DNA from: a virus
Virus record (IMG/VR): IMGVR_UViG_3300030108_003091
Location: 7,562 to 71,561 of that record
Length of the DNA: 64,000 nucleotides
Strand: one strand, 5' to 3'
Position 1 is the stretch's first letter. Every line of letters begins with the position of its first letter. The notes beneath the pieces are model-generated. The model ran no database searches. It was not told the DNA's origin and saw only the letters and a list, made by a program, of their open reading frames with translations. This document shows positions 1-64,000 of the stretch, one piece after another. The position numbers and the translations under genes are program-made.

Positions 1-3
1 ATT

Positions 4-2250
4 ATGCCGATGCTGCATCCATCGTTCATTGTGCGATCACCGGGCTGGCGCAGCGTATTTCTATCTGACCTTGGTAAAGCGTTTCGATACTTTGAGGACC
101 GCTTGAACTGGGAGGAACCAGAGATTCTATGGCGACCAACACCGGAGCAACTGGAGAGTTGGTTGTCTCAGCCCGCACCGTTTTGGGCCTACGATGTTGA
201 GACCGATGGTATCGAAGCTTTGGAGTGCGGTCTACGCACTATTGCTATCGCTACACCTGACCTGGATTACAGAGGTAAGGCAGCACGCGGAACCTACTCA
301 CAAGTCAGTAAGGCTGTGGGTATTGGCCTGCTGTCTGTAGATGGTCGCACACGTTTCTATACGCATGATGATGAGAGGCGCATCAAAGACATTCTACGTC
401 GCGCGTTTACAGATGGTCGTGTGTGGGTGGGACATAACGCTGGATACTACGATCGCATGGTCATCGAGAACCATTTAGGCGTTACTCCTGCACCGTTAGT
501 AGACACGCTGTTCCACGCACGATTCAGAGCGCCGGACTTACCCAAGAGTCTCAAAACAGTAGGCTCGATTCTTACCGACGTTGAACGTTGGGAGACTACA
601 GAGAAGGGCACGAAGATCAGTACAGGATCAGAGGATGATGACGAACTATTGCGGTACAACATCGTGGATACCGTAGTCAACGCACGCATCACTGTACCCC
701 TTATTGATTCATCTACAGAGTCTGGTGCGTTCCGTACAATCCGAAAAGACATTGTACCTACTGGATGGCATGACAGTCGTGCATGGAATCTGAATGAAGT
801 AGACCACGCAACACAAGAAATGTGCGTCAACATGCACAAGAACGGTATTTGGGTTGACCAGAAACTACGAGCCAGCCTTGAAACAGAGTACCAACTGAGT
901 GTGCGTAGTCGGTTCAAAAAGCTGCGTGAACTGATTACACAGGTAGGTGGCAAAGACTTGAGCGAGTCTGCCGTCAACGCTGACGACAACGTCAATCCCG
1001 GCAGTGCTGCACAGATCAGAGACTTGCTCTACGGTAAGTGGGGTCTGAGTATTCCACCACAGATGGACGCCAAAGACTTTTATACTGAGTCAGGGTTACC
1101 CGGTACAGGTGATGCTGTGCTTCGCGGTCACTTGGCCAGCGGTAAACTGAATGAGTTGCAGACTGAGTTCATTCGTGAGTTGCGTCTGTATCGTAGAGAA
1201 AAGAATAAGATCCTCGGTACTACACTCATTCCATTGAATCGACGGGACATTGATCTCAAGAAAGGCGTAGTCCATGAAGACGGTCGCGTGCGTTCGACAT
1301 GGAACGCGCATGTGACCAGTGTGGGCAGGCTTAGTAGTTCTGGACCCAACTTACAAAACCAAGGCAGTCGAAAGGGGCAAGGCAGGCTCAAGGCTATCTT
1401 TGCTGCTGAACCAGGACGCATACTTATCGGTGCTGACTTGGACCAAGCACACCTAAGAATCACAGCTTGTTACTGGCAAATCCCACTATTGCTTGAGTGC
1501 TTCAGTGAAGGTAAAGACCCGCACAACACACTCGCATACGCTACTTTCGGTAATAAGTTCAAGACAGCTTCTGGTTGGGGCTCCGATGGGTTTTCGTTGT
1601 ACAACAAACCAGAAGGGGGTGAGGCCAAAGATATGCGGGACGTGTGCAAGACATTACGGTACGCGTCTATCTATGGTGCTAACCCTGCTACAGCTTGGCA
1701 GGTAATCACCAGCACTGAAACAGGAGACGGTCGTCTGCCTTACGTCGGCATGACTTTGAGAGAAGTACGTATGATGCACGACGCTTGGATGAAATCAGAA
1801 CCTGAGTGGGCCGAGTCATGGGACCGTATGATGCTCATGTACAAGCACCAGGGTTGGATGGAAGAGCCAGTCATGGGTAGGCGCAGCGGTCCTTTAGGTG
1901 ATGGCAAGCTGAATGAAGTGGTGAACTTTCCTATCCTGGCTGCTGAGTCCAGCATCATGCGGCTGGCTGAGATCGCAGTACAAGACGCCTTTCCACATGA
2001 GTTTGCAGGCAAAGGTACAGGTATGATTCACCAATGCCACGACTCTATTGCAGTAGAGATACCGCTGCCTGATGGCTTCGACCCATTGTGGAAACCTCCG
2101 CACCCCAAAGAACGTAAGAACAATCCACTACCGTCTGAGATTGAGAAGGCTCGCCGCATACTTGAAGAATGTATGACGGTTAGTATTCCTGGTTGGGAGG
2201 TCGTAATGACCGCCGAAGGTGACGTGGGCAGAACACTGAAGGACATTTGA
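4..2250 (+). CDS. polA: Family A DNA polymerase with 3'-5' exonuclease; probably 5'-truncated, with the end of a uracil-DNA glycosylase-like domain at its N-terminus
   Basis: ExoI YDVETDG, ExoII GHNAGYYD, ExoIII YNIVD; GRLSSSGPNLQN; motif A ADLDQAHLR; motif B RDVCKTLRYASIYG; motif C HQCHDS. N-terminal LHPSFIVR..W...F..DL.KA resembles the family-4 UDG C-terminal motif. The frame is open at the window edge. Confidence 0.93.
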   Translation: MPMLHPSFIVRSPGWRSVFLSDLGKAFRYFEDRLNWEEPEILWRPTPEQLESWLSQPAPFWAYDVETDGIEALECGLRTIAIATPDLDYRGKAARGTYSQVSKAVGIGLLSVDGRTRFYTHDDERRIKDILRRAFTDGRVWVGHNAGYYDRMVIENHLGVTPAPLVDTLFHARFRAPDLPKSLKTVGSILTDVERWETTEKGTKISTGSEDDDELLRYNIVDTVVNARITVPLIDSSTESGAFRTIRKDIVPTGWHDSRAWNLNEVDHATQEMCVNMHKNGIWVDQKLRASLETEYQLSVRSRFKKLRELITQVGGKDLSESAVNADDNVNPGSAAQIRDLLYGKWGLSIPPQMDAKDFYTESGLPGTGDAVLRGHLASGKLNELQTEFIRELRLYRREKNKILGTTLIPLNRRDIDLKKGVVHEDGRVRSTWNAHVTSVGRLSSSGPNLQNQGSRKGQGRLKAIFAAEPGRILIGADLDQAHLRITACYWQIPLLLECFSEGKDPHNTLAYATFGNKFKTASGWGSDGFSLYNKPEGGEAKDMRDVCKTLRYASIYGANPATAWQVITSTETGDGRLPYVGMTLREVRMMHDAWMKSEPEWAESWDRMMLMYKHQGWMEEPVMGRRSGPLGDGKLNEVVNFPILAAESSIMRLAEIAVQDAFPHEFAGKGTGMIHQCHDSIAVEIPLPDGFDPLWKPPHPKERKNNPLPSEIEKARRILEECMTVSIPGWEVVMTAEGDVGRTLKDI

Positions 2251-2251
2251 T

Positions 2252-2689
2252 ATGAGTACAGCAAACTGGTTCTTGGCGCACAAACGTATGGATGACGATG
2301 CGGACATCAATCATTGGTGCAACAAGCTAACTGAGTCATTGTCACAAGATGGTTGGCCTGCTCTGGTTACGGCGGGCCGCGATGACTATGAAAGTCGCGC
2401 AAAGGCATTGGGTGGTTGGAAAGCATGGGGTCGTGATGTTCCAAGAGCACGAACATTCGACGGCGAAATGCTGTTCCACGGTATCGTTATACCTGCCAAC
2501 GCATTAGACGAAGCACCCACTGTAGGCAAAGCTACGGCACAACTTATTGAGGGATTTATCAACGCGCAGAAACACGCATACGTTTGGTGTCCCGATACAG
2601 ATTCATTCAGGGCAATCATGTCTCTTAACGAAACCGACGAAGACGATTACCGTAACTGGGCAAAACTTGAGTTGAAAGAACAAACTTGA
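2252..2689 (+). CDS. Hypothetical protein, 145 aa
   Basis: Abuts the polymerase stop codon; globular-looking sequence with no recognised motif. Confidence 0.75.
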   Translation: MSTANWFLAHKRMDDDADINHWCNKLTESLSQDGWPALVTAGRDDYESRAKALGGWKAWGRDVPRARTFDGEMLFHGIVIPANALDEAPTVGKATAQLIEGFINAQKHAYVWCPDTDSFRAIMSLNETDEDDYRNWAKLELKEQT

Positions 2690-5209: not shown

Positions 5210-5572
5210 CTACTCAGCGAGTCTAATACTTACGCACCGAATGTCACCATCGAGTGTGTGGAAGATGATTGGTGGCAATCCTCTACGAGATCCACGCATG
5301 CGAACATCTAAATCAAACGTACGACGCTTAATCAGCCTCACTGCTTCGTCGAGTTGTTCTTTCGTAGCGAACCTAAACGTCATGGGCTTTGAAGTTCTAA
5401 TGACATTCAAGTCAAAAGATGGTGCTTTGGCCGGTGCTTTTTTCGCTGGCGCTTTCTTGGGTGCAGCCTTTTTAGGTGCAGCTTTCTTCGGTGCAGCTTT
5501 CTTTGCGGGCGCCTTTTTCTTGGCTACGGCTTTTTTCGCTGCGGGCTTCTTTGCTTTCTTTGTCTCTGCCAT
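5210..5572 (-). CDS. Histone H1-like Lys/Ala/Pro-rich DNA-binding protein
   Basis: KKAAPKKAAPKKAAPKK repeats followed by a small globular domain; GGAGG RBS before ATG 5572. Confidence 0.75.
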   Translation of the reverse strand: MAETKKAKKPAAKKAVAKKKAPAKKAAPKKAAPKKAAPKKAPAKKAPAKAPSFDLNVIRTSKPMTFRFATKEQLDEAVRLIKRRTFDLDVRMRGSRRGLPPIIFHTLDGDIRCVSIRLAE

Positions 5573-5651
5573 GTTGCCTCCAAAACGTTTCAATCAAATG
5601 ACGAGTCTGAGATAGTATAACCTGTGCGAAACTCAATACGAATATACCTCC

Positions 5652-5816: not shown

Positions 5817-7904
5817 ATGACCACTGCTGATGTAGAGCACACTGACACTGAACCAAACGCTTTCCAACTTCTACAGAGAGCGATTGACGCTGCAAAAAAG
5901 AAAGACCCTGACGAGAAAACAGACGCTTGGGCTGACATACACAAACCCGAATCCATGTCTGCCCTTGCAGATGGTTGGCGGTTCAATACAGACACCGTAT
6001 CTGGATTGCTTTCGGTACTCGAATCTATACCTGGACAGGTGAGCAGAGCACGTAGCTTACGCAAAGCAGTACAGCGTTTAGCGGAGCAGCAAGCAAGGCG
6101 TGACGCAGAATCTGTAACTCCCGTTGACAATACACCTTCACGTAGCTTGGCAGACGTGTTGGATGGTGGAGCGCCGCCACCATCGGTCGTTCCGCACTCG
6201 ACACTCCAAGACTTGCAGGTGCCCCGTGGCTACTCCATTTCTCCTGCCGGCGTGTCGAAGATGGGTATCAATCTCGATGGCACCGTAGATAACGTGAGGA
6301 TTGCTTCTGCTCCCATCTTTATCGTGGGCCGCACCGAAGACGTACACAGTGGAGAAGCGAAGCGACAGGTGGTGTGGCGGGGTCCGAGTGGTTGGTGCAG
6401 TCGTACTCTTGACCGACGCACCATTATGGACACCGGAAGAATCGTACAACTTTCCAGTATTGAAGCACCGATTAACTCTACTATTGCGGCGCAAATCGTG
6501 ACTTACCTTGCTGACTTTGAAGCTGAGAACCAACACCGGTTCCCTTCAATCAAGTCTGCGAACCGTATGGGCTGGTTACCGAATGGTGGTTTCCTGCTTT
6601 CAGACGGGTACTATGCAACCAGCGAGGCAGAAAAAGAGAAGGCAGACTACGCGCTCACTGCACCCACCGGATTCGAGAGACTGTCTGGTGGATGGCAACC
6701 CAAGGGTGAGCACGCAACTTGGCTTACTGGTGTGGAGTTAGTAACCGACAGCCCCCTAATGATGATCGCACTGTACGCTTCGGCGGCTGCACCATTACTC
6801 AAGATTCTACGTATCTCTGGTTTCGTCGTGGACTTCAGTGGTGAGACAAGTGGTGGTAAGACTACGGCGCTCAAGTTTGCTGCATCCGTATGGGGTCGAC
6901 CTGCTGAGTCTTACCCAACTGCTATGTACTCATGGGATTCAACAAAGGTATGGATTGAACGTACCTGCGGTTTCCTCAACAACCTACCAGTCATCCTCGA
7001 CGAAACCAAGCGCGCTAAGAGCCCGAGCATTGTCCGTGATGTCATCTATGATTTCTGTCAGGGTCAAGGTCGTGGTCGTGGTTCTGTAGATGGTACACGC
7101 GCCACTGATAGCTGGCAGTCTGTTATGATTAGTAGTGGTGAAGGTTCTGCTACATCATTCAGTGAAGACGCAGGAACCCGCGCCCGTGTGATCTCACTCA
7201 AGGGCAAACCGCTTGGAAACAATCCTCGACATGGAGGACAAACCAGTGAAGAACTACAGGCGATCCTCGCGGAGAACTACGGTCACCTTGGTCGCGCAAT
7301 CGTTCGTTACTTGGTTGGCAACCACAAGCACCACGATGCGATTCGTGCCGTGTTCAATGACGCCAGGAACCGTTACGCAAGCATGGCTACGACTGCGGTT
7401 ACTCGGAGAATGTCATCGCATATCGCAGCGCTTGAAGTATCGGCGGCGATCATTCACCAACTGGGTGTACCCCAAGCAGAATGCGACCCCTTCGGTTATC
7501 TTGTTGACGCGGCCATCCAAGCAGGCGTGGAAGCAGACAGACCACTGGTCGCGCTCCAAGACACACTGACATGGTGCGCCACACACAAGGCGCGCTTTTG
7601 GGGCCGCAACGACAAACTGAGCAACGGCGCCGCCCTCATTCCCCCTGCCGGATGGTTGGGTGCATGGGCAAGCGAACCGAGTTGGGAATACATCGCCATA
7701 AGTTCTGTGGAGTTACGCAAGTTCTTGGCGTCGGTAGGTCACCATCCAGGCGAGGTACTGGAGCGTTGGGATGAGCGTGGTTGGCTTATGCGATTGGAGA
7801 ACAGTACCAGTCGCACACGACCCGTAAGGTTGGGTGGTGTACAAGCACGATGCTACTGCATCCGTAGGCACGCAGCGAACATCGCTTTGGGGGAAGCTGA
7901 TTAG
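5817..7904 (+). CDS. DUF927-domain replicative helicase (Cch/SaPI Rep-like)
   Basis: RMGW motif, Walker A GETSGGKTT, Walker B LPVILDE, GQGRGRG, W....ISSGE, ENYGHLG, winged-helix-like C-terminus. Confidence 0.85.
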   Translation: MTTADVEHTDTEPNAFQLLQRAIDAAKKKDPDEKTDAWADIHKPESMSALADGWRFNTDTVSGLLSVLESIPGQVSRARSLRKAVQRLAEQQARRDAESVTPVDNTPSRSLADVLDGGAPPPSVVPHSTLQDLQVPRGYSISPAGVSKMGINLDGTVDNVRIASAPIFIVGRTEDVHSGEAKRQVVWRGPSGWCSRTLDRRTIMDTGRIVQLSSIEAPINSTIAAQIVTYLADFEAENQHRFPSIKSANRMGWLPNGGFLLSDGYYATSEAEKEKADYALTAPTGFERLSGGWQPKGEHATWLTGVELVTDSPLMMIALYASAAAPLLKILRISGFVVDFSGETSGGKTTALKFAASVWGRPAESYPTAMYSWDSTKVWIERTCGFLNNLPVILDETKRAKSPSIVRDVIYDFCQGQGRGRGSVDGTRATDSWQSVMISSGEGSATSFSEDAGTRARVISLKGKPLGNNPRHGGQTSEELQAILAENYGHLGRAIVRYLVGNHKHHDAIRAVFNDARNRYASMATTAVTRRMSSHIAALEVSAAIIHQLGVPQAECDPFGYLVDAAIQAGVEADRPLVALQDTLTWCATHKARFWGRNDKLSNGAALIPPAGWLGAWASEPSWEYIAISSVELRKFLASVGHHPGEVLERWDERGWLMRLENSTSRTRPVRLGGVQARCYCIRRHAANIALGEAD

Positions 7905-22766: not shown

Positions 22767-23043
22767 GATGTTTTTGCTTTTGCTTTTGTGTATGAGTCAA
22801 CCAGCCGCTGCGACAAAGTCTGTTGAGGGCCAAGTGACTGCGCAACTAAGTGATAGTTTGTGGGTTCTACAGTACGAGAACAAACGATACGCGTGTAAGA
22901 CTACGCACTTATGCAAAGACTTTAGAGTCGACATGCGTTTCATTCCGTTGTTCAAGTTTACGCGGGAGAAAGAGTTGCTTGACTACGTAACGGTGGAGCA
23001 TAGGTGGCACGATTGTGTAGTGAATAGTTGTCAGGTGTACTGA
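22756..23043 (+). CDS. Hypothetical exported protein
   Basis: Signal peptide-like N-terminus MISKMFLLLLLCMSQPAAA. Confidence 0.55.
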   Translation: MISKMFLLLLLCMSQPAAATKSVEGQVTAQLSDSLWVLQYENKRYACKTTHLCKDFRVDMRFIPLFKFTREKELLDYVTVEHRWHDCVVNSCQVY

Positions 23044-23537
23044 TGCCTGATCATTCATTAGACGACATAGTTCACTCTATACAATCGGCAGTTATCGCGG
23101 CGACTGATATTGCGGAGCGTCACGAACTCGATTCGATAATGAACCAAGAGTTTTGGGAACTCAAGGTTGATGAGGATGGGAACCCAATCAAGGGTGACAA
23201 TGGAATGGAGGTGTACGCACCAAAGATGGTCAACATGGAGATACCCATGTGGGAAGACGGCACGTTGGTTAAGAGGCAGGTGCCCGTACCATTGCAGTCG
23301 CTGACTACCGGACAAAGTTTGCGTGTAGATACGCTTGAAGTTGAAATGTCTGTTGAGATTTCAGGTCTGACCGCAGATAAGAAAAAAGGAAAACTCATGG
23401 TTCGACCATGCGCGAATACACCGTCGTGGTTTAAAAAAGAAAGCAATGCTGCTAAACTAAAGCTGATCTTCAGGGGCAGTGAGCCGCCAGAAGGTTATGC
23501 AAGAATCGACGATCAACTTATCAAACTGCTTCCGTAG
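23043..23537 (+). CDS. DUF2589-family protein
   Basis: L.DI...IQ.AV..A, VPL.SL, C-terminal F...EPPEG.ARI.D. Confidence 0.75.
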   Translation: MPDHSLDDIVHSIQSAVIAATDIAERHELDSIMNQEFWELKVDEDGNPIKGDNGMEVYAPKMVNMEIPMWEDGTLVKRQVPVPLQSLTTGQSLRVDTLEVEMSVEISGLTADKKKGKLMVRPCANTPSWFKKESNAAKLKLIFRGSEPPEGYARIDDQLIKLLP

Positions 23538-23546
23538 GAGAGCATC

Positions 23547-24155
23547 ATGGCAGATTCCGGCCTCGTAAAAATGTCAGACCAGTTTGGTGGTCTACCAATG
23601 GAACAACTTATTGGTGGTCCGCTCAAAGCAGCCTGTAACGCACAAACCCTTCTGGCTAAGGCGTCGAGCGACTTCATCAAAGATGTCGGACTCGATGACG
23701 ATGGCAAGGGCAACATGGCTGCACGGACTGTGGACTTTTCGTTCAACAAGCCTGTACAGGATGCTGCCGGTAACACGACGATGGAAAAGGTGGACCTTCA
23801 GGTTCCACTGCTCGCCATCATCAATACACCAAGCTTGTCAGTCAAGGAAGCTGAAGTGCGCTTCACCATGGAAGTAAAGTCTTCTACGTCAAGCAAGCAA
23901 ACTTCTGATAGCAAGGCTGACCTTACAGCTAAGGCTAAGTACAATGCCGGCCTGTTCTCCTGTGAAGTGACCGTTCATGGTTCTGTAGCGAATCACAGCG
24001 AGAACACCCGTAGCAGCGACAACAGCGCCAAGTATGATGTTAAAGTAGTCGCACGTGACGATGGACCTCCAGAGGGCTTGAGCCGCGTTCTGGATATGTT
24101 TAATGATGCTATTGCACCTACTCAGGGTGCAGCACAACCTAAAAAAGTAGGATAA
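23547..24155 (+). CDS. DUF2589-family protein
   Basis: FGGLPMEQLIGGPL.AAC.AQ, VPLLAI..P.L, F.MEVKSS, PEGLSRVLD. Confidence 0.85.
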   Translation: MADSGLVKMSDQFGGLPMEQLIGGPLKAACNAQTLLAKASSDFIKDVGLDDDGKGNMAARTVDFSFNKPVQDAAGNTTMEKVDLQVPLLAIINTPSLSVKEAEVRFTMEVKSSTSSKQTSDSKADLTAKAKYNAGLFSCEVTVHGSVANHSENTRSSDNSAKYDVKVVARDDGPPEGLSRVLDMFNDAIAPTQGAAQPKKVG

Positions 24156-48980: not shown

Positions 48981-51900
48981 ATGTCAAACGGCCCTTACAT
49001 CGACCCTGAAAGTCGTCAGAGAGAAATCGAAGGTCTCTCTGAAAGGTTAAAAGTTCCACAGGAAGAAGCCGCACGCCTACTGGATGAAAGTTTGGCGCGA
49101 ATGGATGCTGAACCGGAACCAGTTGAAGTACCTGAGATTGAACCGCCGAAGCCAATAAAGCGGCCTGAGACTGAACCACCCAAGATTGAGGTGCCTGAGA
49201 TCGAGGCACCTAAACCTTTGAACGTTACCAGCGGCTACGGTGAAATGTCCGAAAGACGGAACTTCCCACATCGCGGTATTGATATTGCATTACCTGAAGG
49301 CACACCGATTAAGTCTTTGTCGTCAGGCACAGTTACACGAATCGTAAAGAACGAGGATGGTGACGCAGGTGGTTTGCGTATTTTTGTTCGTGATAACGAT
49401 GGAATAGAAACTCGCTACATGCACGCAAGCGGGTTTCCAGAAGGTCTTGAAGTAGGCTCACAAGTCAACAAAGACCAAGTAATCATGATGTCCGGTAACA
49501 CTGGTAGGTCGACTGGGCCCCACCTTCACTTAGAGACGGGCAAGATTGGTGACGACGGACAGTTTATTAGAAGCAATCCGGCTGAAGTGTACTCAGACTT
49601 GTTTAAAGGCGCTGACCCAAAGGAAGTGCCGAGAGAAGTACCGGAACACTTAAAGCCTGACTTCAAACTTGAGATACCTACCTTACTGGCCGGTCTTGAG
49701 TTTGCTCGCAGACGAGTCATCGCAGGAAGAGGCGAAGAATCCAGTATTCCTCAAGAGATCAAACGGCATGCACAACAGATTGGTCTTGACGTAAAGCAAC
49801 TACAGGAAGCAGCATCGACCCAAGGTATATCGCTTGGGTACATGGTGGATGAGGTAGGTCGGAAAGGTCGATCATCGGATGACGTTATCGGTGAAGCCAG
49901 AGAGCGTGGTGTCGCAGCTTTTCTTGACCCCGAGCAACGCGCAGCACGGCAAAAGCGTGGCGCACTGGCTGACCAAGACGCAGTCAAAAAGTATCAAGAG
50001 ACAGGTGACCACACGTTTTTGTTAGATGAGTTTGGTCAGGGCATCTATGAGCATGACGAGGCTATGCCTTTCTTTGGCGGGCAAGCCATTGAGTTCGGTG
50101 AAGTAGCCAAGCCCGACGAAGACATGTATAAGGTTGCGTCGGTTATCAGCGAAGCTGTCATGAAAGACAAACAAGCCTCGTCGCTTGTCAATGCCCTTTC
50201 TGACAAGTACACAGGCGCGAGAGACTACGCTAAAAAACGTGCGAGCCAATACCTCAAACAACGTAACTTGACTCCTAAAGATGAAGAATACCTTGAAATG
50301 TCGCGTAAGTTCTATGACCGGGCAATCCGAGAGATTGTTGCGCTCAAGACAGTTGGTATGTGGACTGGACCCATCATCGTGCCTGAAGAGGAACTGTTGG
50401 AGTCACAGTCGAATCGGGACTTATCTGATCGGTTCTTTGACGCGCTCAAACCTACAGTAGAGATTGTAGGTATTCGTTCGTTCGGTCAACAGTCTGAACT
50501 TGTACTCCGCGAAGAGAACCCACTGCTTTACTTTTTCAACCTGATTGACATGGCTCAGTCGGCTGCAACTGGCGCACTAACGACAGAAGGTGACGCGTTA
50601 GAAGGCGCTATCGAAGGTATGGAGTTGCGGCGTAACTTTTTCGAAGCTGCAATCGATAGTGAGTTTGCTGAGAAAAATGCTGCGACAAAGACACTCGCAT
50701 TTGTTGGTGGGGGTCTTGCAACAATACTGACACCTGACGCATTGGTTGGTGCCGGTGGTGTAGCAAAGCTGACAAACAAAGTTGTGCAACTCGTAACAAC
50801 ACAAGCTGCCGCAAAAAAAGCAGGACAGCTTTTGTCCGACATTTCTCTTGCGCGACAAGCAGAGGATTACGACAAAGCATCACTTCTTGAGGCTGAACTA
50901 CGTAGAGAGTTCAAACAAAAAGGTGGGGTAGCTGACCTATTAGACGTTCTTGACGGTGAAGCTGCACAGTTTATCGCCAAGAACAACCCTGAAATGTTGG
51001 ACACGTCATTCATCCAAAAGCTTGCTGTGATCGATCGGTCTTTGCCAGAAGACTCATTTTTATCTGCGCGGGCACTGGCACTACACCCATCGGTAAGAAA
51101 GCCAAGATTGTCTGCTGGACGAGGTGAGGGGAAAGTTCAGGCTGTTGGTTACGGCGGCATGGACACGGATATTGACGAGGCCGTTGGTCTGTATGAGTAT
51201 GGCAATATCATTGACGAGTTGCAGGCGATAAAGAAACAACTGCAGCAATCCGCGACAAAAGGCAAGCTACCTCAACTGCAAAAAACTTCTGCGTCTAACA
51301 TCGCAAAGCTTGAAAAACTGGTTGATGCTGCAAATGATCCCGAAGGTGCTCAGTTTATCGCACGACTGAAAGAATCTTTGGCTGATGCGATTGACGACCC
51401 GAAAGCTTGGGACAATAGGTTTCATGGCGACGGTAATCTTGAGAGTGAGTTGGCGAAGATTACGGGCTTGCGCGGACCTACGCAGGAAGAGATTGCGGCA
51501 GCGACGGGTAAAGAACTTACAAAACTCAATAAAGCAAAAGAGACTGCTAAGAACAAACGCAGAGAGATTCACGATGAGATTGGTAAGATCACTACTCAAG
51601 CTAAGAATGTAGAAGATCCCCTTGCACTGATTGATCGTGCTATTGACACAGTTAAAGCTAACAACGAATCTCGCGGAGTAGCCGCTAAACTACTAAGTGA
51701 GACTGTTCTTGGTTCGCGAAAACTCAAACCAATCACGCGTGACCCCACAAAAGACTTAGCGGCAAACGCAGTCGAGTTGAGTAGCGAAGCCAACGTACTC
51801 GCGAGTAAACTTGAAACTGCTTACGAGATCACAGAAGATCAGGCTCAAGCGTTAGCGGGACTCATGGACGCACGTTCAAGAGCCTGGAGCACAGCTACAG

Positions 51901-54900
51901 GTAAGCCCGCACGGGATTACTTTAACGAAGGTATCTCAGGGATTGTCAAAGGCGAAGACATAAAGAAACCTTTGTTCGAAATGAACGAAATGGACGATGG
52001 CTTGGTTGAACTCACAACCAAAGAAATCAAAGATGCGAACGGGTTCGGACTCATATTCCGTGTACAGGATGACGCTCTAACTGTGAGCAGTGTAAACATA
52101 CCTCAAGCGCAACGCGGTAAGGGTATTGGTACAGCACTGTACGGACGCGCACTACAGCATGCAAAGTCTCTTGGTAAAGGATTCGCCAGTGACGTAAGCC
52201 CAAGCCCCGAAGCAATCCGTGTATATGAGCGCCTCATCAAACGAGGTGTACCGTTACGTAGGCGACAAGTAGACTTACCTGACGGAACAACGTCTCGTCA
52301 GTACGTTATCTCTACAGACGATCTCGCCAAAGTTGATCTGACAGGTGTCGAACTTATTACGCTTAGACCTGCAGTGGATATTGCGTCTGACGGTCGCGCG
52401 ATTCTAAACGCGTTTACGGAGCCAACATTCCGTGGTGCAGTGCGTGGTATGGCGCATGTGTTTCGTCGTGACTTAGAAGACTACGACTTGCGTGTAATCG
52501 AAGAATGGTGCGGAGTTAAAAACGGACGATGGACTGAACAAGCAGAAGCAAAGTGGGCCAGCGGTTTTGAGAACTATTTAGCTGAAGGTGTTGCGCCAAA
52601 TAATCAAGTCCAAACTGTGTTCGATAAGTTCAAAGTTTGGATGTCAGAAGCTTACCGCAACGTAGTAGGTAAACCTGTCGTCCAAAGAATGCCCGACAAC
52701 GTTCGTGACATCATGAACAAACTGCTTACCGAAAGTCCACCTAATGAACCACCGTTCAAACGTACGCTTGCTGCGATGAGCATCGGTGATCCAAGCAAAA
52801 TCACCAAAACTAATATTGACCCATTGATGGAGTTGGCAAAAGCTGCACGCAAACAAGGCATGCGAAACTCAGAACCAAACCTGATGCTTTCATCTTTGGA
52901 GGCAAACGGTCAGGTCACTTTCCGTAAACCCATCGAAATCAATGGCATAAGCAAGAACGTATGGACAAAAGAAGACTTAGCTGAACTGCAGTTAAGTTTA
53001 GAGACGAAAGCGCGTATCACGAAGCAAATGGAAGACGCGCCAGAGATTCAGTTGAGGGGTGCCCCGAGTGCTGAAGCGGCCGAGTCAATCGACGAAAAGA
53101 TTATTGCTGAAGTGGGTGGTGAAGGTGTACTTCGCGGAGTTGCTAAGTTTGCTGTCTATGCTGTCCTCGGTGGAGACCATGTCGGTGTAGCACTACGCAG
53201 AATGCGTCCAGAGCATAGACAATCTGTGTTGGCAGCTACGCGGTCTACAGAACAGGCTATTGGTGACGCAGTAACGCTGGTATCTCAAACAGGTACGAAA
53301 GGCGGCATGACTCGATTGCATGAGTTCCTTGGCGGCGAACTTACCAAGTTTAAGTCCGGCAGGGATGCCTTGTCGTCAGGCAAAGACTTTATGGGTATGT
53401 CCTTAACGACAATACGTCAGTCTTTCTTAGACTTAGACAACGTTGCTTTTCGCGGTCGAAAGCTTGGCGACTTCCTACGTGAAATGGTTCAAGCCATGGA
53501 TGGTCCTGCAGGACCCAAGAAAGGTTACGAAGCTTTCGCAGGTAAGAGTAAGAATAACAAAGAAGCTGTACAAGAAATCTTTGCTCGGTTGGGCGCGAAA
53601 AAACAAAACCAACTTATGAGCGACCTGTTCAACGCATTCGGTGCTGCTGGAGCGAAACGGCCGCAAGAGGCTATGTTTCTCAAAGTTATGATGGAAGCCG
53701 CGAATGTTCACCCTGGTAGACTGGCGGGCCTCAAAGGTGCTGAACGTGCGGAAGAGGTCTTCTCTGCGATTGAGAACATTTACGGCGGCTCAAAAGGTAG
53801 AGAGGCTGCGCTGCGCGCTTCTGTTTTGTTTGCCGGTCATGGTGAAGCGGCTCACGCCAGAAGTGTTTGGGCGGGGCTTGGGTTGGCTGTTGACGACAAG
53901 ATGATGGATGCTTGGCAGTCTTGGTTGATGGGCGAAAAGATTGATCCAGAACTGATACCTCAAATGCACGCTATGGTTCGAAACTATGGACTGAGACCTG
54001 AGTTTATCGACGACACCGTGCTTGAAGCAGGGTTTCATATCCCAAAGGTCGCACGCGAAAGACTTACAAATGCTCTCGCAAAAGCCGGTATCTTAGACGA
54101 TCCAAACAAAATAACTGACCTAACAGATACGGGGATATTCTTTAAGAGTGTCTACACTTACATGAAAACCCGAATGACTCGCGGCGGGTTTCTCGTCCGG
54201 CAGCGGTATTTCTTGATGAACACTGTAGACCACTTCAGTCAAATGGCAATGGTTGCGGGGTTCAGACCCGCACTTGTATCTACAGTCAGGCTTTCATTCC
54301 AGAACTTGATGGTGTTTCCTGGTTTCGCGCATACACTAGGTCTTGTCGATAAGTTGGGCGGCGTTCAAGCAGGAGAAAAACTACGAAAAGTCCTACAAGC
54401 TGGTGGTGACAGAACCGCAAACCTCGTAGGTCGGTTTCTCAATGTGTCTAAGTATCGTGTGGAAGTGAACCCAATCTTGGAAGGTGTTGCGAAGGACGGT
54501 AGTAAAGTATTCAGTTTGATGGATTCTAAAACGGGTCAGACAAGATTCTACAACTACGCAGATATTCGTCGTATCGCTGTCGAAGAGGGAATCTTTGCAA
54601 GCTTCGATACAAGAGCATTAGAGCGCGCGATTAACACTGGTGTACGTGTTGAGTACAAAAAGTTTTTAGACAAAGCGCCCGCGCCAATATCGAACGCTGT
54701 GGATAACATCAAAGGTGGCTTTGGTTTTTTCACAGATAACGTAGCGAAGACTGCAGAATGTTGGTCTGAGCGCGAACGTATTGGTGCCATGGTTACTCTA
54801 ATGGAAGCCGGTATGGAGCCAAGACAAGCAGCAAGGCTCGCGATTAACGGCTTGTTTGACTACGCAGGAACAATGTCAAAGCTGGATAGGAACTGGGTGG

Positions 54901-56237
54901 TCAACCTAATGTTCCCGTTTTGGGCTTTCCAGAAAAATGCCAACAGACTTATTCTACGGCAAATGTTTACACCGCAGGGTGCATATAAAATGGGTGTTTT
55001 GCGCCGAGCCTACACCGTTAGTGCTGATGCAATCACTGAACTTTTGTACGAACGGGTTGCTGATCCCTACGGCATCGATGCAGATCGAATGCCGGTAGAG
55101 TTGAAAGAGAAGTATTACTTCCTGAGAGGTATCATTGAGAATGGCTACGGACCTCTTGACCAGTTGAAAAACGCTCCCATGGGTGATTCTATACTTAAAG
55201 GTATAGAGGAACAGTACGGACCAATAGAAATGATTGACGCAGAAACGCGTAAGTTTCTTGAGCAGGGTTACGGCGGTTACTCGAAAACACCTGCAGATGT
55301 TCGTGACGCAGTGAGGTTGTATCTTGCAGGCGTAACCAGCGGTATGCCCGACGAACTTGGATCGAAGCGCGCAACTCCCGACCAACGTGTTGAACTTAAC
55401 TTTCGACTGGCTGATCGAATGGGTCAACTGCGGCCAAGAACTGCAGAAGGTGAAACGTTCTCTGACTACTACAACGCTAGACCTGGCAAGAGCGCCCGAC
55501 GTAACTTTCACAGAGACAGGGTGGGTATTCCAATCAAACCTGCCATGACAGAAGACGTAAGAAAGTTTTTGCGTATGGCCGAAGACGATCCTGTAATCGG
55601 TTTTGACGACGTTTACTTGGAAGCTTTGTATCCAGACAGCACGATCTATGCCGGTTTTCGTCACGCAGCGGCGGTAATCGCAGTACCGATTATCATGGGT
55701 AGGGGCCTTATCAAAGACTTGGCAGGCAGTCCCGAAGACGAGGCAATCAGCGATATGATGTATCGCACTGCACTGGATATGGCTGGTGATCCGTTGGACT
55801 CACCTATTCCAAGTCTTATGTTATCGGCAACGACCGAGGTAGATTCCAGGCCGAGACGACTCAACGTTGAGTTCGCAAAAACACTTCGCAACTTAAAAGA
55901 CATGGGACTTCCGTTACCATCGATCACGATTGTAAAGGCGACCGAAGACAGATTTGCTCCGAAAGGTGAAGGTGTCATTAAACGAGAACGTGCTTACATG
56001 ATGGGCGGCACAGGCTCTATGATCTTTTCTTTGACACCGCTTGGAGAACTCAATGACATCATGTCACGACTTGAGCAAGCACCCATACAAGAAAAGATGG
56101 GTATTCAAGGTGAACTACTCAAATGGGCCGAAGTTGTGATGGGTCTTCAAGTTGTTGAAACATCGCGTCAAGTGTCAGCGAGAGCAGACGCACCTAAGTT
56201 TAAGATGATTACAACAGCCCCCCCTACACCTAAGTAA
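48981..56237 (+). CDS. Giant polyvalent internal virion protein: M23 peptidase, GNAT-like domain and degenerate zincin-like domain
   Basis: HRGID...YMH...GNTGRSTGPHLH (M23); QRGKGIGTALY (GNAT motif A); FDY..MS..DR...MFPFW.FQ in the C-terminal region, typical of ejection proteins. Confidence 0.8.
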   Translation: MSNGPYIDPESRQREIEGLSERLKVPQEEAARLLDESLARMDAEPEPVEVPEIEPPKPIKRPETEPPKIEVPEIEAPKPLNVTSGYGEMSERRNFPHRGIDIALPEGTPIKSLSSGTVTRIVKNEDGDAGGLRIFVRDNDGIETRYMHASGFPEGLEVGSQVNKDQVIMMSGNTGRSTGPHLHLETGKIGDDGQFIRSNPAEVYSDLFKGADPKEVPREVPEHLKPDFKLEIPTLLAGLEFARRRVIAGRGEESSIPQEIKRHAQQIGLDVKQLQEAASTQGISLGYMVDEVGRKGRSSDDVIGEARERGVAAFLDPEQRAARQKRGALADQDAVKKYQETGDHTFLLDEFGQGIYEHDEAMPFFGGQAIEFGEVAKPDEDMYKVASVISEAVMKDKQASSLVNALSDKYTGARDYAKKRASQYLKQRNLTPKDEEYLEMSRKFYDRAIREIVALKTVGMWTGPIIVPEEELLESQSNRDLSDRFFDALKPTVEIVGIRSFGQQSELVLREENPLLYFFNLIDMAQSAATGALTTEGDALEGAIEGMELRRNFFEAAIDSEFAEKNAATKTLAFVGGGLATILTPDALVGAGGVAKLTNKVVQLVTTQAAAKKAGQLLSDISLARQAEDYDKASLLEAELRREFKQKGGVADLLDVLDGEAAQFIAKNNPEMLDTSFIQKLAVIDRSLPEDSFLSARALALHPSVRKPRLSAGRGEGKVQAVGYGGMDTDIDEAVGLYEYGNIIDELQAIKKQLQQSATKGKLPQLQKTSASNIAKLEKLVDAANDPEGAQFIARLKESLADAIDDPKAWDNRFHGDGNLESELAKITGLRGPTQEEIAAATGKELTKLNKAKETAKNKRREIHDEIGKITTQAKNVEDPLALIDRAIDTVKANNESRGVAAKLLSETVLGSRKLKPITRDPTKDLAANAVELSSEANVLASKLETAYEITEDQAQALAGLMDARSRAWSTATGKPARDYFNEGISGIVKGEDIKKPLFEMNEMDDGLVELTTKEIKDANGFGLIFRVQDDALTVSSVNIPQAQRGKGIGTALYGRALQHAKSLGKGFASDVSPSPEAIRVYERLIKRGVPLRRRQVDLPDGTTSRQYVISTDDLAKVDLTGVELITLRPAVDIASDGRAILNAFTEPTFRGAVRGMAHVFRRDLEDYDLRVIEEWCGVKNGRWTEQAEAKWASGFENYLAEGVAPNNQVQTVFDKFKVWMSEAYRNVVGKPVVQRMPDNVRDIMNKLLTESPPNEPPFKRTLAAMSIGDPSKITKTNIDPLMELAKAARKQGMRNSEPNLMLSSLEANGQVTFRKPIEINGISKNVWTKEDLAELQLSLETKARITKQMEDAPEIQLRGAPSAEAAESIDEKIIAEVGGEGVLRGVAKFAVYAVLGGDHVGVALRRMRPEHRQSVLAATRSTEQAIGDAVTLVSQTGTKGGMTRLHEFLGGELTKFKSGRDALSSGKDFMGMSLTTIRQSFLDLDNVAFRGRKLGDFLREMVQAMDGPAGPKKGYEAFAGKSKNNKEAVQEIFARLGAKKQNQLMSDLFNAFGAAGAKRPQEAMFLKVMMEAANVHPGRLAGLKGAERAEEVFSAIENIYGGSKGREAALRASVLFAGHGEAAHARSVWAGLGLAVDDKMMDAWQSWLMGEKIDPELIPQMHAMVRNYGLRPEFIDDTVLEAGFHIPKVARERLTNALAKAGILDDPNKITDLTDTGIFFKSVYTYMKTRMTRGGFLVRQRYFLMNTVDHFSQMAMVAGFRPALVSTVRLSFQNLMVFPGFAHTLGLVDKLGGVQAGEKLRKVLQAGGDRTANLVGRFLNVSKYRVEVNPILEGVAKDGSKVFSLMDSKTGQTRFYNYADIRRIAVEEGIFASFDTRALERAINTGVRVEYKKFLDKAPAPISNAVDNIKGGFGFFTDNVAKTAECWSERERIGAMVTLMEAGMEPRQAARLAINGLFDYAGTMSKLDRNWVVNLMFPFWAFQKNANRLILRQMFTPQGAYKMGVLRRAYTVSADAITELLYERVADPYGIDADRMPVELKEKYYFLRGIIENGYGPLDQLKNAPMGDSILKGIEEQYGPIEMIDAETRKFLEQGYGGYSKTPADVRDAVRLYLAGVTSGMPDELGSKRATPDQRVELNFRLADRMGQLRPRTAEGETFSDYYNARPGKSARRNFHRDRVGIPIKPAMTEDVRKFLRMAEDDPVIGFDDVYLEALYPDSTIYAGFRHAAAVIAVPIIMGRGLIKDLAGSPEDEAISDMMYRTALDMAGDPLDSPIPSLMLSATTEVDSRPRRLNVEFAKTLRNLKDMGLPLPSITIVKATEDRFAPKGEGVIKRERAYMMGGTGSMIFSLTPLGELNDIMSRLEQAPIQEKMGIQGELLKWAEVVMGLQVVETSRQVSARADAPKFKMITTAPPTPK

Positions 56238-63243: not shown

Positions 63244-63819
63244 ATGCGTCCATTTCTTTTAGACTATGTCGAATCTCTCGGTCACGCTGTATTTGAGTCA
63301 GGTGAGTACAACCTGAACATCATTGGTATCCGAAGCCGTGACCACCAAGCCAACAGCTTTGACGACCGCATTTGCGTCGTGTTTCGTGATGAGCAAGGCT
63401 GGATTACCCGTACATGGGAATGCACAACTGAGCCCGGTAAATACTGGCTGGAGAATCCCACTCGCGTTGAAGGAACTGCTATCCTTGTGCCTGGGCAATA
63501 CCGATCTGTTTGGAAGATCGATAAGCACCAGGGGAAGTACGATGCGCTCTGTCAGAGGAACGGTACGGTCAAAACTTACCGGGATAGCAATAAAGACGAC
63601 GTTGTTGACCTTGACGTACAGTCTATTACTGAAGGCTATTATGGAATCAATATCCACAAAGCGGGATCAGCGTCGACGCAAGTAGACAAGTGGTCTGCTG
63701 GTTGCCAAGTATTCAGTCATAGCAAAGACTTTGACGAGTTCATGTCGATTTGCTACGCAGCCCGAGAAAAGTGGGGCAACGCTTTCACGTACACTTTGAT
63801 TGACGAACCGGAGTTTTGA
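63244..63819 (+). CDS. Putative endolysin with an L,D-transpeptidase-like His/Cys catalytic motif
   Basis: LNIIGIR, FDD, TT.PG, GINIH.A...WSAGCQV; flanked by holin-like genes. Confidence 0.7.
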   Translation: MRPFLLDYVESLGHAVFESGEYNLNIIGIRSRDHQANSFDDRICVVFRDEQGWITRTWECTTEPGKYWLENPTRVEGTAILVPGQYRSVWKIDKHQGKYDALCQRNGTVKTYRDSNKDDVVDLDVQSITEGYYGINIHKAGSASTQVDKWSAGCQVFSHSKDFDEFMSICYAAREKWGNAFTYTLIDEPEF

Positions 63820-64000
63820 TGGAGGCCCTGATAGACACACTGCTATCAGGGGGTCACTTAGGCGTTTTTGCCGCGTTTCTGGTGTATCAGTTCATGGCTA
63901 TGCAAAAACGGCTTGATAAGCTAGTAGAAGGCTTCCAAGAGCAACTGGATGAGATCCGTAAAGAGTACGACTCACGCTCAGAGAAAATGCGTGAACGTTA
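63819..64000 (+). CDS. Holin-like protein (BhlA/UviB-type), 3'-truncated
   Basis: TGATG overlap; MEALIDTLLSGGHLGVFAAFLVYQF TM segment followed by a coiled coil. Confidence 0.55.
   Translation, partial: MEALIDTLLSGGHLGVFAAFLVYQFMAMQKRLDKLVEGFQEQLDEIRKEYDSRSEKMRER

What the first reader, a model, noticed from the sequence alone, without database searches (positions are those of the whole stretch)
1420..2060. Phage PolA with a rewired active site: steric-gate Glu to His and minor-groove Gln to Leu
Seen: motif A reads D-L-D-Q-A-H-L-R (His codon 1450-1452) where family A has DYSQIELR, and N-F-P-I-L-A-A-E-S-S replaces NAPMQGTAAD. The catalytic Asp residues, R668 (GRLSS), K758, Y766 and all three exonuclease motifs are intact, and position 762 is Tyr as in T7. 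Established: Klenow E710 is the steric gate that excludes rNTPs, and Q849 reads the minor groove. Inference: the two changes plus a new Glu at the 852-equivalent look like co-adaptation rather than decay. The enzyme may accept rNTPs or prime synthesis (no primase is seen in the window, and SCCmec pairs an A-family primase with a Cch-type helicase), or it may be tuned to a modified base.
Basis: partly seen in the sequence, partly recalled or inferred. Interest (0 to 1): 0.78.

Follow-up and report, generated by a model that had tools for sequence, protein, structure and literature searches.

The report
Phage DNA polymerase with histidine sugar-gate
The only DNA polymerase of this uncultured marine phage has histidine where Pol I-type enzymes normally have the glutamate that keeps RNA building blocks out, and this is one of four linked active-site changes that are conserved across many uncultured phages and arose more than once.

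Summary
Window 1-2250 holds the last 749 codons of a 939-aa UDG / 3'-5' exonuclease / family A polymerase fusion. It is the only polymerase found in a 71.5-kb phage genome rated 100% complete.

A HMMER alignment to Klenow places His674 (CAC, 1450-1452) on the steric-gate Glu, Leu836 on the motif-6 Gln, and Glu839 three residues later on an Ala. I found a fourth linked site: Val631 sits on the Thr of the TGR motif.

- All 121 close homologues keep H, L and E.
- Among 144 more distant cluster representatives with all three sites read, 69 are H-(L/I)-E. The other 75 are E/D-Q/S with no Glu at the third site. None is mixed.
- The same holds in IMG/VR loci: 74 HLE, 73 EQx, 0 mixed.
- A tree built without these columns needs three switches. 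One single His clade is rejected (AU p = 0.014).

The co-adaptation idea is therefore strongly supported. Priming, rNTP use and modified-base readings are not. Glu-type relatives share the same replication module, the known A-family primase keeps Glu, and no primase or modification gene was found.

Earlier agents of this scan noted the same signature on other genomes. My literature searches found no description of it.

The parts
1..2250 (+). C-terminal 749 codons plus stop of the 939-aa UDG / 3'-5' exo / PolA gene. The start codon lies 569 nt upstream of the window (genome 6992-9811).
   Evidence: Pfam UDG (aa 42-205) and DNA_pol_A (aa 510-878, 96.6 bits against a cut-off of 34.3). AF2 model pLDDT 93.7. 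Best fold match is Klenow 8oo6.
16..24 (+). H196-P197-S198, the C-terminal motif of the family-4 UDG-like domain. The rest of that domain lies upstream of the window.
   Evidence: H in 44 His-type and 65 Glu-type representatives; P in 61 and 75. The motif name is recalled.
193..669 (+). 3'-5' exonuclease motifs: D255/E257 (193-201), N336/D341 (436-453), Y409/D413 (655-669).
   Evidence: Invariant or nearly so in both polymerase types.
1321..1329 (+). V631-G632-R633, the TGR motif with Val on the Thr position. This is the fourth member of the linked set. R633 is invariant.
   Evidence: Alignment to Klenow 'tgr'. Association scan: His-type V47/P15/I5, Glu-type T46/S17/G7. R633 invariant.
1435..1458 (+). 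Motif A, D669-L-D-Q-A-H674-L-R. It holds the catalytic Asp and has His (1450-1452) on the steric-gate Glu position.
1636..1674 (+). Motif B (O-helix): R736, K740, Y744 (Klenow F762 position), Y748 (Y766 position).
1924..1947 (+). Motif 6, N832-F-P-I-L836-A-A-E839. Leu lies on the minor-groove Gln position, and the new Glu is one helix turn later.
   Evidence: Both lie in helix 827-853 of the model.
2038..2046 (+). Motif C, H870-D871-S872 (HDS where Klenow has HDE).
   Evidence: S, A or Q dominate in both types, and only 3 of 149 representatives keep E.
2252..2689 (+). 145-aa ORF immediately downstream. It has an alpha/beta fold, not an OB fold.
   Evidence: AF2 pLDDT 94.7. Best VIA-align rows are NDT, TIR, SEFIR and ThsB folds at Z 6-7, a range the tool calls common. 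Present in 47 of 80 His-type and 14 of 77 Glu-type loci.
5817..7904 (+). 695-aa DUF927 / Cch-type helicase. It is context for the priming question.
   Evidence: Pfam DUF927 5.6e-39 plus Cch HTH. phrog_8841 'DNA primase/helicase' matches aa 132-684 only. Found in 37 of 80 His-type loci and 0 of 77 Glu-type loci.

Best explanation
This is the phage's replicative DNA polymerase, a single chain with a family-4 UDG-like domain, a proofreading 3'-5' exonuclease and a Pol I-type polymerase.

Its active site carries an alternative, co-adapted wiring of the polar cluster under the primer end and the incoming sugar. In ordinary Pol I enzymes that cluster is built from the TGR Thr/Arg, the motif-A Glu and the motif-6 Gln. 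Here four things have changed together:
- The carboxylate has moved from motif A to helix Q (Glu839).
- His674 takes the gate position under the sugar.
- The Thr has become hydrophobic (Val631).
- The Gln has become hydrophobic (Leu836).

Shown: the four changes are real, conserved, always occur together, and switched as a block several times on the same replisome background.

Inferred:
- His674 pairs with Glu839.
- Glu839 replaces the gate Glu as the partner of the invariant Arg633.
- The His ring still blocks a 2'-OH, much as the aromatic gates of other polymerase families do.
- The enzyme therefore remains a dNTP-selective, proofreading replicase.
- Direct reading of the template-side minor groove by the Gln is lost or done another way, so fidelity or lesion handling may differ in degree.
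For: Identity as a replicase:
- Pfam, fold and motif evidence.
- All exonuclease and catalytic residues are conserved.
- It is the only PolA hit, with no PolB hit, in a genome rated 100% complete.

Linkage of the sites:
- 121 of 121 close homologues carry H, L and E.
- 69 of 69 His-type and 0 of 75 Glu-type representatives carry L/I plus E.
- 74 HLE loci against 73 EQx loci, none mixed.
- Three more loci read V/P-H-L-E, beside 24 that read T/G-E-Q-G/S.
- The TGR site has the next highest association after the three sites themselves (0.95 against their 1.0), and follows the His state in five of the six separately checked His-type rows, the sixth having a gap there.

Independent switches:
- An IQ-TREE tree of 55 rows, built without the four columns, needs 3 changes, all forced by starred branches.
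- The AU test rejects one single His clade (p = 0.0139).
- Locus L164 (VHLE) has as its nearest polymerase in my set L100 (53% identity), a locus from the Glu-type scan whose own site calls I did not read out. It carries the same module genes.

Purifying selection: synonymous codon variation at all four sites.

Physical proximity in known enzymes: a review of Bst polymerase states that Q797, R615, E658 and D830 lie close together in an electrostatic interaction (passage of PMC10520511). In the model, His674 lies in the first turn of the helix after the motif-A strand, and L836 and E839 are one turn apart on one helix.

Same role as Glu-type enzymes: the shared module.

Sugar selection probably kept: Tyr at the 762 position.
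Against: - No coordinates of the model could be read, so the His-Glu and Arg-Glu contacts are not measured. Only three of the four positions have literature support for proximity.
- No member of this clade has been assayed or cultured. The best match in 50,697 phage records is about 21-27% identical.
- The loss of the Gln is not obviously neutral. The same review reports that Q849A in Klenow changes its error spectrum (less prone to T:G misinsertion) and that mutations of the Q849, R668, E710 and D882 counterparts impair substrate binding or catalysis.
- The His-type loci from IMG/VR are mostly one lineage, so counts of sequences overstate independent evidence. The real count of events is about three.
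- The AU p-value is modest. It comes from a quick LG+G4 tree of 55 of 143 rows.
Confidence: 0.6

Rival explanations
1. The four-residue set changes what the enzyme accepts. One version is relaxed or different sugar selection (rNTPs or 2'-modified nucleotides). Another is relaxed minor-groove checking that helps it copy modified DNA or extend past the abasic sites its own UDG domain would make.
For: - The two best-known selectivity positions of family A are both replaced.
- The Gln that reads the template-side minor groove is lost in every His-type enzyme.
- The UDG-like domain keeps its conserved Cys, Pro and His residues.
- In another UDG-PolA family, UDG-made abasic sites are bypassed by the polymerase (abstract of PMC13697223).
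- Recurrent origin suggests a selectable property.
Against: - Glu-type relatives have the same UDG domain and the same module, so UDG coupling does not explain the switch.
- Tyr at the 762 position argues against rNTP use.
- No dUTPase, PurZ-like or thymidylate-synthase-like gene was found in the complete genome, and Pfam scans of 48 ORFs gave no modification enzyme. Many ORFs have no known family, so this is weak.
Confidence: 0.25
2. The polymerase primes its own synthesis, alone or with the downstream small protein and the Cch-type helicase, as SCCmec CcPol-MP-Cch2 does.
For: - No Prim-Pol, Toprim_2, Toprim_3 or DnaG zinc-ribbon domain in six frames of a complete genome.
- A DUF927/Cch helicase lies 3.6 kb downstream.
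- The gene order of polymerase, then small ORF, then helicase recalls the SCCmec operon (PMC7581432 and PMC10061031, passages).
Against: - CcPol keeps the gate Glu and Phe762, so priming by an A-family enzyme does not call for His.
- This enzyme has a full, conserved exonuclease and a UDG domain, unlike CcPol.
- The small ORF is alpha/beta, not an OB fold.
- Glu-type loci share the module and also show no primase among the clusters I scanned.
- DUF927 is absent from 77 of 77 Glu-type loci, yet the small ORF is present in 14 of them.
Confidence: 0.07
3. The changes are decay, a sequencing error, or an inactive polymerase remnant.
For: Three positions usually treated as near-invariant differ from Klenow: the gate Glu, the motif-6 Gln and the motif-C Glu.
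Against: - Invariant in 121 of 121 homologues from many samples, with synonymous codon variation.
- Catalytic Asp residues, the O-helix and the exonuclease are intact.
- It is the only polymerase in a complete genome.
- The model is confident.
Confidence: 0.02

Closest known systems
Bacterial DNA polymerase I large fragments (E. coli Klenow, Bst BF, KlenTaq)
   Same: - Same exonuclease-plus-polymerase fold: Foldseek E 1.5e-27 and TM 0.80 to 8oo6.
- Motif A and C Asp, TGR Arg, and O-helix Arg, Lys and Tyr are all present.
   Different: - About 17-20% identity.
- An N-terminal UDG domain instead of a 5' nuclease.
- Val, His, Leu and Glu in place of the TGR Thr, gate Glu, motif-6 Gln and following Ala.
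- HDS in place of HDE.
- Tyr at the 762 position.
Glu-type members of the same uncultured UDG-PolA superfamily (for example P0148, 43% identical)
   Same: - Same three-domain architecture and conserved UDG and exonuclease residues.
- Same neighbouring replication genes.
- HDS/HDA motif C.
   Different: - They keep T/S/G-E-Q-A/G at the four sites.
- No DUF927 helicase within 10 kb in 77 of 77 loci.
N4-like UDG-PolA, cluster #17 of Czernecki et al. 2023 (PMC10201439; passages read)
   Same: - N-terminal family-4 UDG-like domain fused to exonuclease and polymerase.
- A phage replicase, in a genome of similar size.
   Different: - N4 gp39 has Glu at the gate ('DFASLEDR') and shares only 33% identity over 199 residues with this protein.
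- The paper says cluster #17 has lost the UDG catalytic residues. Here the conserved UDG positions are kept.
- No N4-type virion RNA polymerase was seen. The 2418-aa ORF matched peptidase and endolysin families only.
SP15/YerA41/phiLo-like UDG-PolA (Missoury et al. 2026, PMC13697223; abstract and passages read)
   Same: UDG domain fused to a replicative family A polymerase. That work shows the UDG can act on template dU ahead of synthesis.
   Different: - Those enzymes are larger, with big insertions.
- They come from phages with hypermodified thymine and are described with the standard E710-type gate.
- SP-15 polymerase is only a distant fold match here (rank 47).
SCCmec CcPol-MP-Cch2 primase-helicase (PMC7581432, PMC10061031)
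   Same: A family A polymerase gene, then a small ORF, then a Cch/DUF927-type helicase.
   Different: - CcPol lacks most of the exonuclease and keeps the gate Glu.
- MP is an OB-fold SSB, whereas the small ORF here is alpha/beta.
- The helicase here is not adjacent to the polymerase.

Membership tests
Family A DNA polymerase (Pfam PF00476, Pol I fold) | Significant match to the family profile and the Pol I fold | tested here: met
   96.6 bits against a cut-off of 34.3. Foldseek to Klenow, Bst and Taq: E 1e-24 to 1e-27, TM 0.76-0.82.
Family A DNA polymerase (Pfam PF00476, Pol I fold) | Catalytic Asp of motif A and motif C; TGR Arg; O-helix Arg, Lys and Tyr | tested here: met
   D669, D871, R633, R736, K740 and Y748 are conserved.
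Family A DNA polymerase (Pfam PF00476, Pol I fold) | Steric-gate Glu in motif A (position A2 of Czernecki 2023) | tested here: not met
   His674, in 121 of 121 close homologues and 71 of 149 representatives.
Family A DNA polymerase (Pfam PF00476, Pol I fold) | Motif-6 Gln (minor-groove reader) and Thr of the TGR motif | tested here: not met
   Leu836 and Val631. Czernecki 2023 reports only one cluster, with Ala, that departs from the TGR Thr.
Family A DNA polymerase (Pfam PF00476, Pol I fold) | Second carboxylate of motif C (HDE) | tested here: not met
   HDS here. Only 3 of 149 representatives keep Glu, in both types taken together.
Proofreading 3'-5' exonuclease (DEDDy type) | Exo I, II and III acidic residues and the Tyr | tested here: met
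   D255, E257, N336, D341, Y409 and D413 are conserved in both types.
Family-4 UDG-like domain | Profile match plus the conserved Cys set and the Pro/His motifs | tested here: met
   Pfam UDG 1.4e-11. PDB sequence hits to family-4 UDGs 1l9g, 1vk2 and 1ui0. C18, C21, C95, C134, P54 and H196/P197 are conserved. Activity was not tested.
N4-like UDG-PolA (cluster #17) | Clusters by sequence with N4 gp39; UDG catalytic residues lost | tested here: not met
   Only a local 33% match over 199 aa to N4 gp39. The conserved UDG positions are kept. The authors' CLANS clustering was not rerun.
SCCmec-type CcPol-MP primase | Truncated exonuclease; OB-fold SSB partner encoded next to the polymerase | tested here: not met
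   Full exonuclease. The downstream ORF is alpha/beta by DSSP, with no OB-fold entry among the listed rows.
SP15-like UDG-PolA | Large insertions; co-occurring X-family polymerase and DNA ligase | tested here: inconclusive
   No ligase or PolX hit among the 48 ORFs scanned with Pfam. Not all ORFs were scanned, and no dedicated search was made.

The most novel reading that the evidence does not exclude
Family A polymerases have a second, independently evolved way of choosing the sugar. A His held by a helix-Q Glu acts as a planar gate, in place of the near-universal Glu, and the Gln minor-groove check is lost. This gives measurably different sugar, analogue or lesion selectivity in a very large group of ocean phage replicases.
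Probability: 0.25. Interest if true: 0.8.

Novelty: new variant of a known kind. Interest (0 to 1): 0.62.

Why it matters
The motif-A Glu and motif-6 Gln are textbook fixed points of Pol I-type enzymes, and they are the basis of much polymerase engineering. This finding points to a natural, widespread and repeatedly evolved alternative.

- At least 71 of the 149 nearest 50%-identity clusters carry it, out of 490 clusters with E below 1e-30.
- The alternative comes with its own compensating partner residues.
- It therefore gives a ready-made, testable case of how an active-site hydrogen-bond network can be rebuilt.
- It is also a new scaffold for asking what the Glu gate and the minor-groove Gln really contribute to sugar selection and fidelity.

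It also shows that the replicases of an abundant group of uncultured 70-kb marine phages lie outside the 19 described PolA clusters.

Tried and rejected
Steps that led nowhere:
- Model coordinates. The AF2 model is confident, but no coordinate file reached the script box. His-Glu and Arg-Glu distances could not be measured.
- Cultured relatives. tblastn of the whole protein and of its last 340 residues against 50,697 phage records gave nothing above about 27% identity. BFVD gave only unnamed or uncultured close matches. A scan of GTDB genome contigs with P0002 found no relative. The host is therefore unknown.
- Gene context of the nested His-type group. Single-protein scans with P0203 and P0264 found nothing. 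An alignment of four sequences found one useful locus, L164.
- Genes linked to the switch. Clusters specific to Glu-type or His-type loci mostly had no Pfam family; the hits were DUF932 and DUF7227. They probably reflect lineage.
- Protein Atlas. No usable hit for the 145-aa ORF. For the 212-aa ORF, only a DUF669 lead carried by 24% of one cluster's members.
- Literature. Searches for E615H, E710H, E658H, E480H and E2335H, for the motif strings, and for Klenow residue names found no paper. Keown 2022 has no mention of the gate. In Czernecki 2023, the passages found with the terms 'steric gate', 'histidine', 'position A2' and 'TGR' do not describe a His gate. I did not see its figures or supplements, where a logo might show one. 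About 1.7 million PMC articles are outside the search.

Rows left out of the counts:
- Two loci, L198 and L205, gave odd letters at the key sites. They are partial or very distant matches, so I left them out as uninformative.
- In the same call, 13 loci had incomplete reads.
- In one search, 13 of 160 loci were incomplete.
- In one search, 8 of 151 rows with under 70% coverage were dropped.
- The tree used 55 of 143 rows: 19 chosen by me, 36 drawn at random.

Rejected readings: decay or sequencing error, an N4-like member, and a CcPol-type primase, for the reasons given under rival explanations and the membership test.
Full report
**What is there.** The window is bases 7562-71561 of a single 71,561-bp virus record that CheckV rates 100% complete. 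The ORF that runs off the window's left edge (1..2250) is the end of a 939-aa gene starting 569 nt upstream.

Pfam finds a UDG-superfamily domain (aa 42-205) and DNA_pol_A (aa 510-878, 96.6 bits against a cut-off of 34.3). Between them lie conserved DEDDy exonuclease motifs. An AlphaFold2 model built on 81 sequences is confident (pLDDT 93.7, pTM 0.91). Its best solved match is the Klenow fragment (8oo6, E 1.5e-27, TM 0.80 on the target), followed by other Pol I enzymes.

Six-frame searches found this as the only PolA and found no PolB. The rest of the genome has an SU10/P22-like portal, a terminase, a major head protein and a 2418-aa protein with a peptidase-like N-terminus. This is a tailed phage, and this gene is its replicase.

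**The observation.** The HMMER alignment to Klenow chains places His674 on the gate Glu, Leu836 on the motif-6 Gln, Glu839 on the Ala three residues later, Ser872 on the Glu of HDE, and Val631 on the Thr of TGR. Klenow residue numbers in this report are recalled.

**Is it real and selected?** A word-indexed search found 195 relatives, of which the best 120 were listed. With the window's own protein that makes 121 sequences of 60-94% identity, and H674, L836, E839 and S872 are invariant in all 121.

In the 80 IMG/VR loci of this lineage, the four codons vary synonymously while the residues stay:
- His: CAC 69, CAT 11.
- Leu: four different codons.
- Glu: GAG 57, GAA 17.
- Site 631: four Val codons and four Pro codons.

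Sequencing error and decay are excluded.

**The linked set.** A full HMMER scan of 1.84 billion cluster representatives gave 490 clusters below 1e-30. I placed the best 150, plus the query, on a family profile, and 149 could be typed.

| Gate residue | Representatives | With all three sites read | Result |
|---|---|---|---|
| His | 71 | 69 | 69 of 69 have Leu/Ile plus Glu |
| Glu (one Asp) | 78 | 75 | 74 Gln, 1 Ser; none has Glu at the third site |

Two scans of IMG/VR gave 160 loci: 74 HLE, 73 EQ(G/A/S/C), 13 incomplete and none mixed. A third scan added three V/P-H-L-E loci and 24 T/G-E-Q-G/S loci, with 15 incomplete or unreliable.

A column-by-column association scan then showed that the TGR Thr position has the next highest association after the three sites themselves (0.95 against their 1.0). 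His-type enzymes have V47/P15/I5 there, and Glu-type enzymes have T46/S17/G7. By contrast, HDS/HDA in motif C and Tyr at the 762 position are common to both types.

**Independence.** In a FastTree of 143 rows built without three of the columns (674, 836, 839), 61 of 65 His-type rows fall on one side of a branch. Four nest among Glu-type rows. An IQ-TREE (quick, LG+G4) of 55 rows, with all four columns removed, needs three changes, all forced by well-supported branches. The AU test rejects a single His clade (difference in lnL 56.5, p = 0.0139).

The nested group also carries Val or Pro at the TGR site. Its one IMG/VR representative, L164 (VHLE), has as its nearest polymerase in my set L100 (53% identity), a locus from the Glu-type scan whose own site calls I did not read out. 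L164 sits in the same gene module. Because Klenow and N4 gp39 carry Glu, and by recall other described Pol I enzymes do too, Glu-type is most simply the ancestral state. I did not root the tree.

**Mechanism.** A review of Bst polymerase says that the counterparts of the Gln, the TGR Arg, the gate Glu and the motif-C Asp lie close together in an electrostatic interaction, and that the sugar of the incoming nucleotide sits above the gate Glu (PMC10520511, passages). In the model, His674 is in the first turn of the helix after the motif-A strand. Leu836 and Glu839 are one turn apart on the next palm helix.

The set keeps one carboxylate and the invariant Arg633 but moves the carboxylate. It puts an imidazole at the gate and turns the two other polar residues hydrophobic.

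My reading, which is inference, is a rebuilt network of Arg633, Glu839 and His674 that still closes the space for a 2'-OH. Tyr at the 762 position fits retained discrimination, because the same review reports that this change in Bst nearly abolished rCTP use. The direct Gln contact to the template minor groove is what must be lost or replaced, so a shift in fidelity or lesion handling is the most likely functional difference.

*Priming.* The genome has no recognisable primase domain. The DUF927 helicase carries a PHROG label 'primase/helicase', but only its helicase part (aa 132-684) matches. Several results speak against priming by the polymerase:
- Glu-type loci share the SNF2 helicase, PD-(D/E)XK nuclease, AAA_24 protein, 212-aa protein, 145-aa protein and 659-aa ATPase.
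- CcPol, the proven A-family primase, keeps the gate Glu.
- The small ORF after the polymerase is a confident alpha/beta domain. It gives only middling matches to NDT, TIR and SEFIR folds (Z 6-7) and is not an OB fold.

*Modified bases.* No dUTPase, adenylosuccinate-synthetase-like or thymidylate-synthase-like gene was found, and nothing of that kind appeared in 48 ORFs scanned with Pfam. Many ORFs remain without a family, so this absence is weak evidence.

**Comparison with known families.** The protein is a family A polymerase by profile and fold, but it fails three residue-level hallmarks.

It is not an N4-like cluster #17 member. N4 gp39 has Glu and matches only locally at 33%, and that cluster is described as having lost UDG catalytic residues, whereas the conserved UDG positions are kept here.

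It is also unlike the SP15/YerA41 group.

Czernecki 2023 states that other UDG-PolAs outside cluster #17 were left unclassified. It reports only one departure, to Ala, from the TGR Thr.

My paper searches found no description of a His gate. I could not see the figures or supplements of these papers.

**Earlier notes of this scan.** A look-up by sequence showed that other agents had reported the same His-gate set on other genomes. They described four substitutions that always occur together, that arose more than once, and that are not tied to priming. I reached the same points from my own calls here. Those notes are not independent evidence. One note mentioned an NDT/TIR-like ORF after the polymerase, which my fold of the 145-aa ORF partly agrees with.

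**Verdict.** The co-adaptation inference is strongly supported and widened to four sites. The proposals about priming, rNTP use and modified bases are not supported but remain biochemically untested. This is a new variant of a known kind of enzyme, and its interest for polymerase enzymology is fairly high.

Noticed in passing
window 2252-2689 (+): The 145-aa ORF right after the polymerase folds with high confidence (pLDDT 94.7) as a small alpha/beta domain. Its best, only middling, structural matches are nucleoside 2'-deoxyribosyltransferase, TIR, SEFIR and ThsB folds (Z 6-7). It is conserved next to both His-type (47 of 80) and Glu-type (14 of 77) polymerases. Its function is unknown.
   Followed up: partly
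window 2038-2046 (+) and homologues: Motif C is HDS or HDA instead of HDE across the whole UDG-PolA superfamily, in both gate types. Only 3 of 149 representatives keep the Glu.
   Followed up: partly
window 5817-7904 (+): A DUF927/Cch-type helicase with a C-terminal Cch HTH. Its first 131 residues match no family. It occurs in 37 of 80 His-type loci and in none of 77 Glu-type loci within 10 kb. This is probably a lineage effect. No primase domain was found anywhere in the complete genome.
   Followed up: partly
homologues P0098, P0109, P0114, P0213, P0269 and others: Many polymerases of this superfamily are 1200-3175 aa long and match the query in 2-6 separate stretches. Some carry an HNH-type domain (PF13392). 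This suggests frequent intein or other insertions in the polymerase gene.
   Followed up: no
window 48981-56237 (+): A 2418-aa ORF whose residues about 80-205 match metallo-endopeptidase and endolysin families. The rest has no family. It may be an ejected virion protein with a cell-wall-degrading domain.
   Followed up: no
window 23028-24155 (+): Two adjacent DUF2589 paralogues (169 and 202 aa).
   Followed up: no
window 5210-5593 (-): A 127-aa ORF with a Lys/Ala/Pro-rich N-terminal half. It gives a weak match, below the cut-off, to the histone H1-like nucleoprotein HC2.
   Followed up: no
L001 6257-6892 (genome coordinates, just upstream of the polymerase): A 212-aa ORF conserved beside both polymerase types (56 His-type and 45 Glu-type loci). 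An Atlas look-alike cluster carries DUF669 in 24% of its members. It may be the single-strand-binding partner of the AAA_24 (Sak4-like) protein.
   Followed up: partly
genome ends (L001 about 160-200 and window about 63800-64000): The last roughly 190 bases of the record repeat, with mismatches, a stretch near its start. The ORFs at 125-502 and 71377-71562 fall in one cluster. This could be a diverged terminal repeat or an assembly overlap.
   Followed up: no
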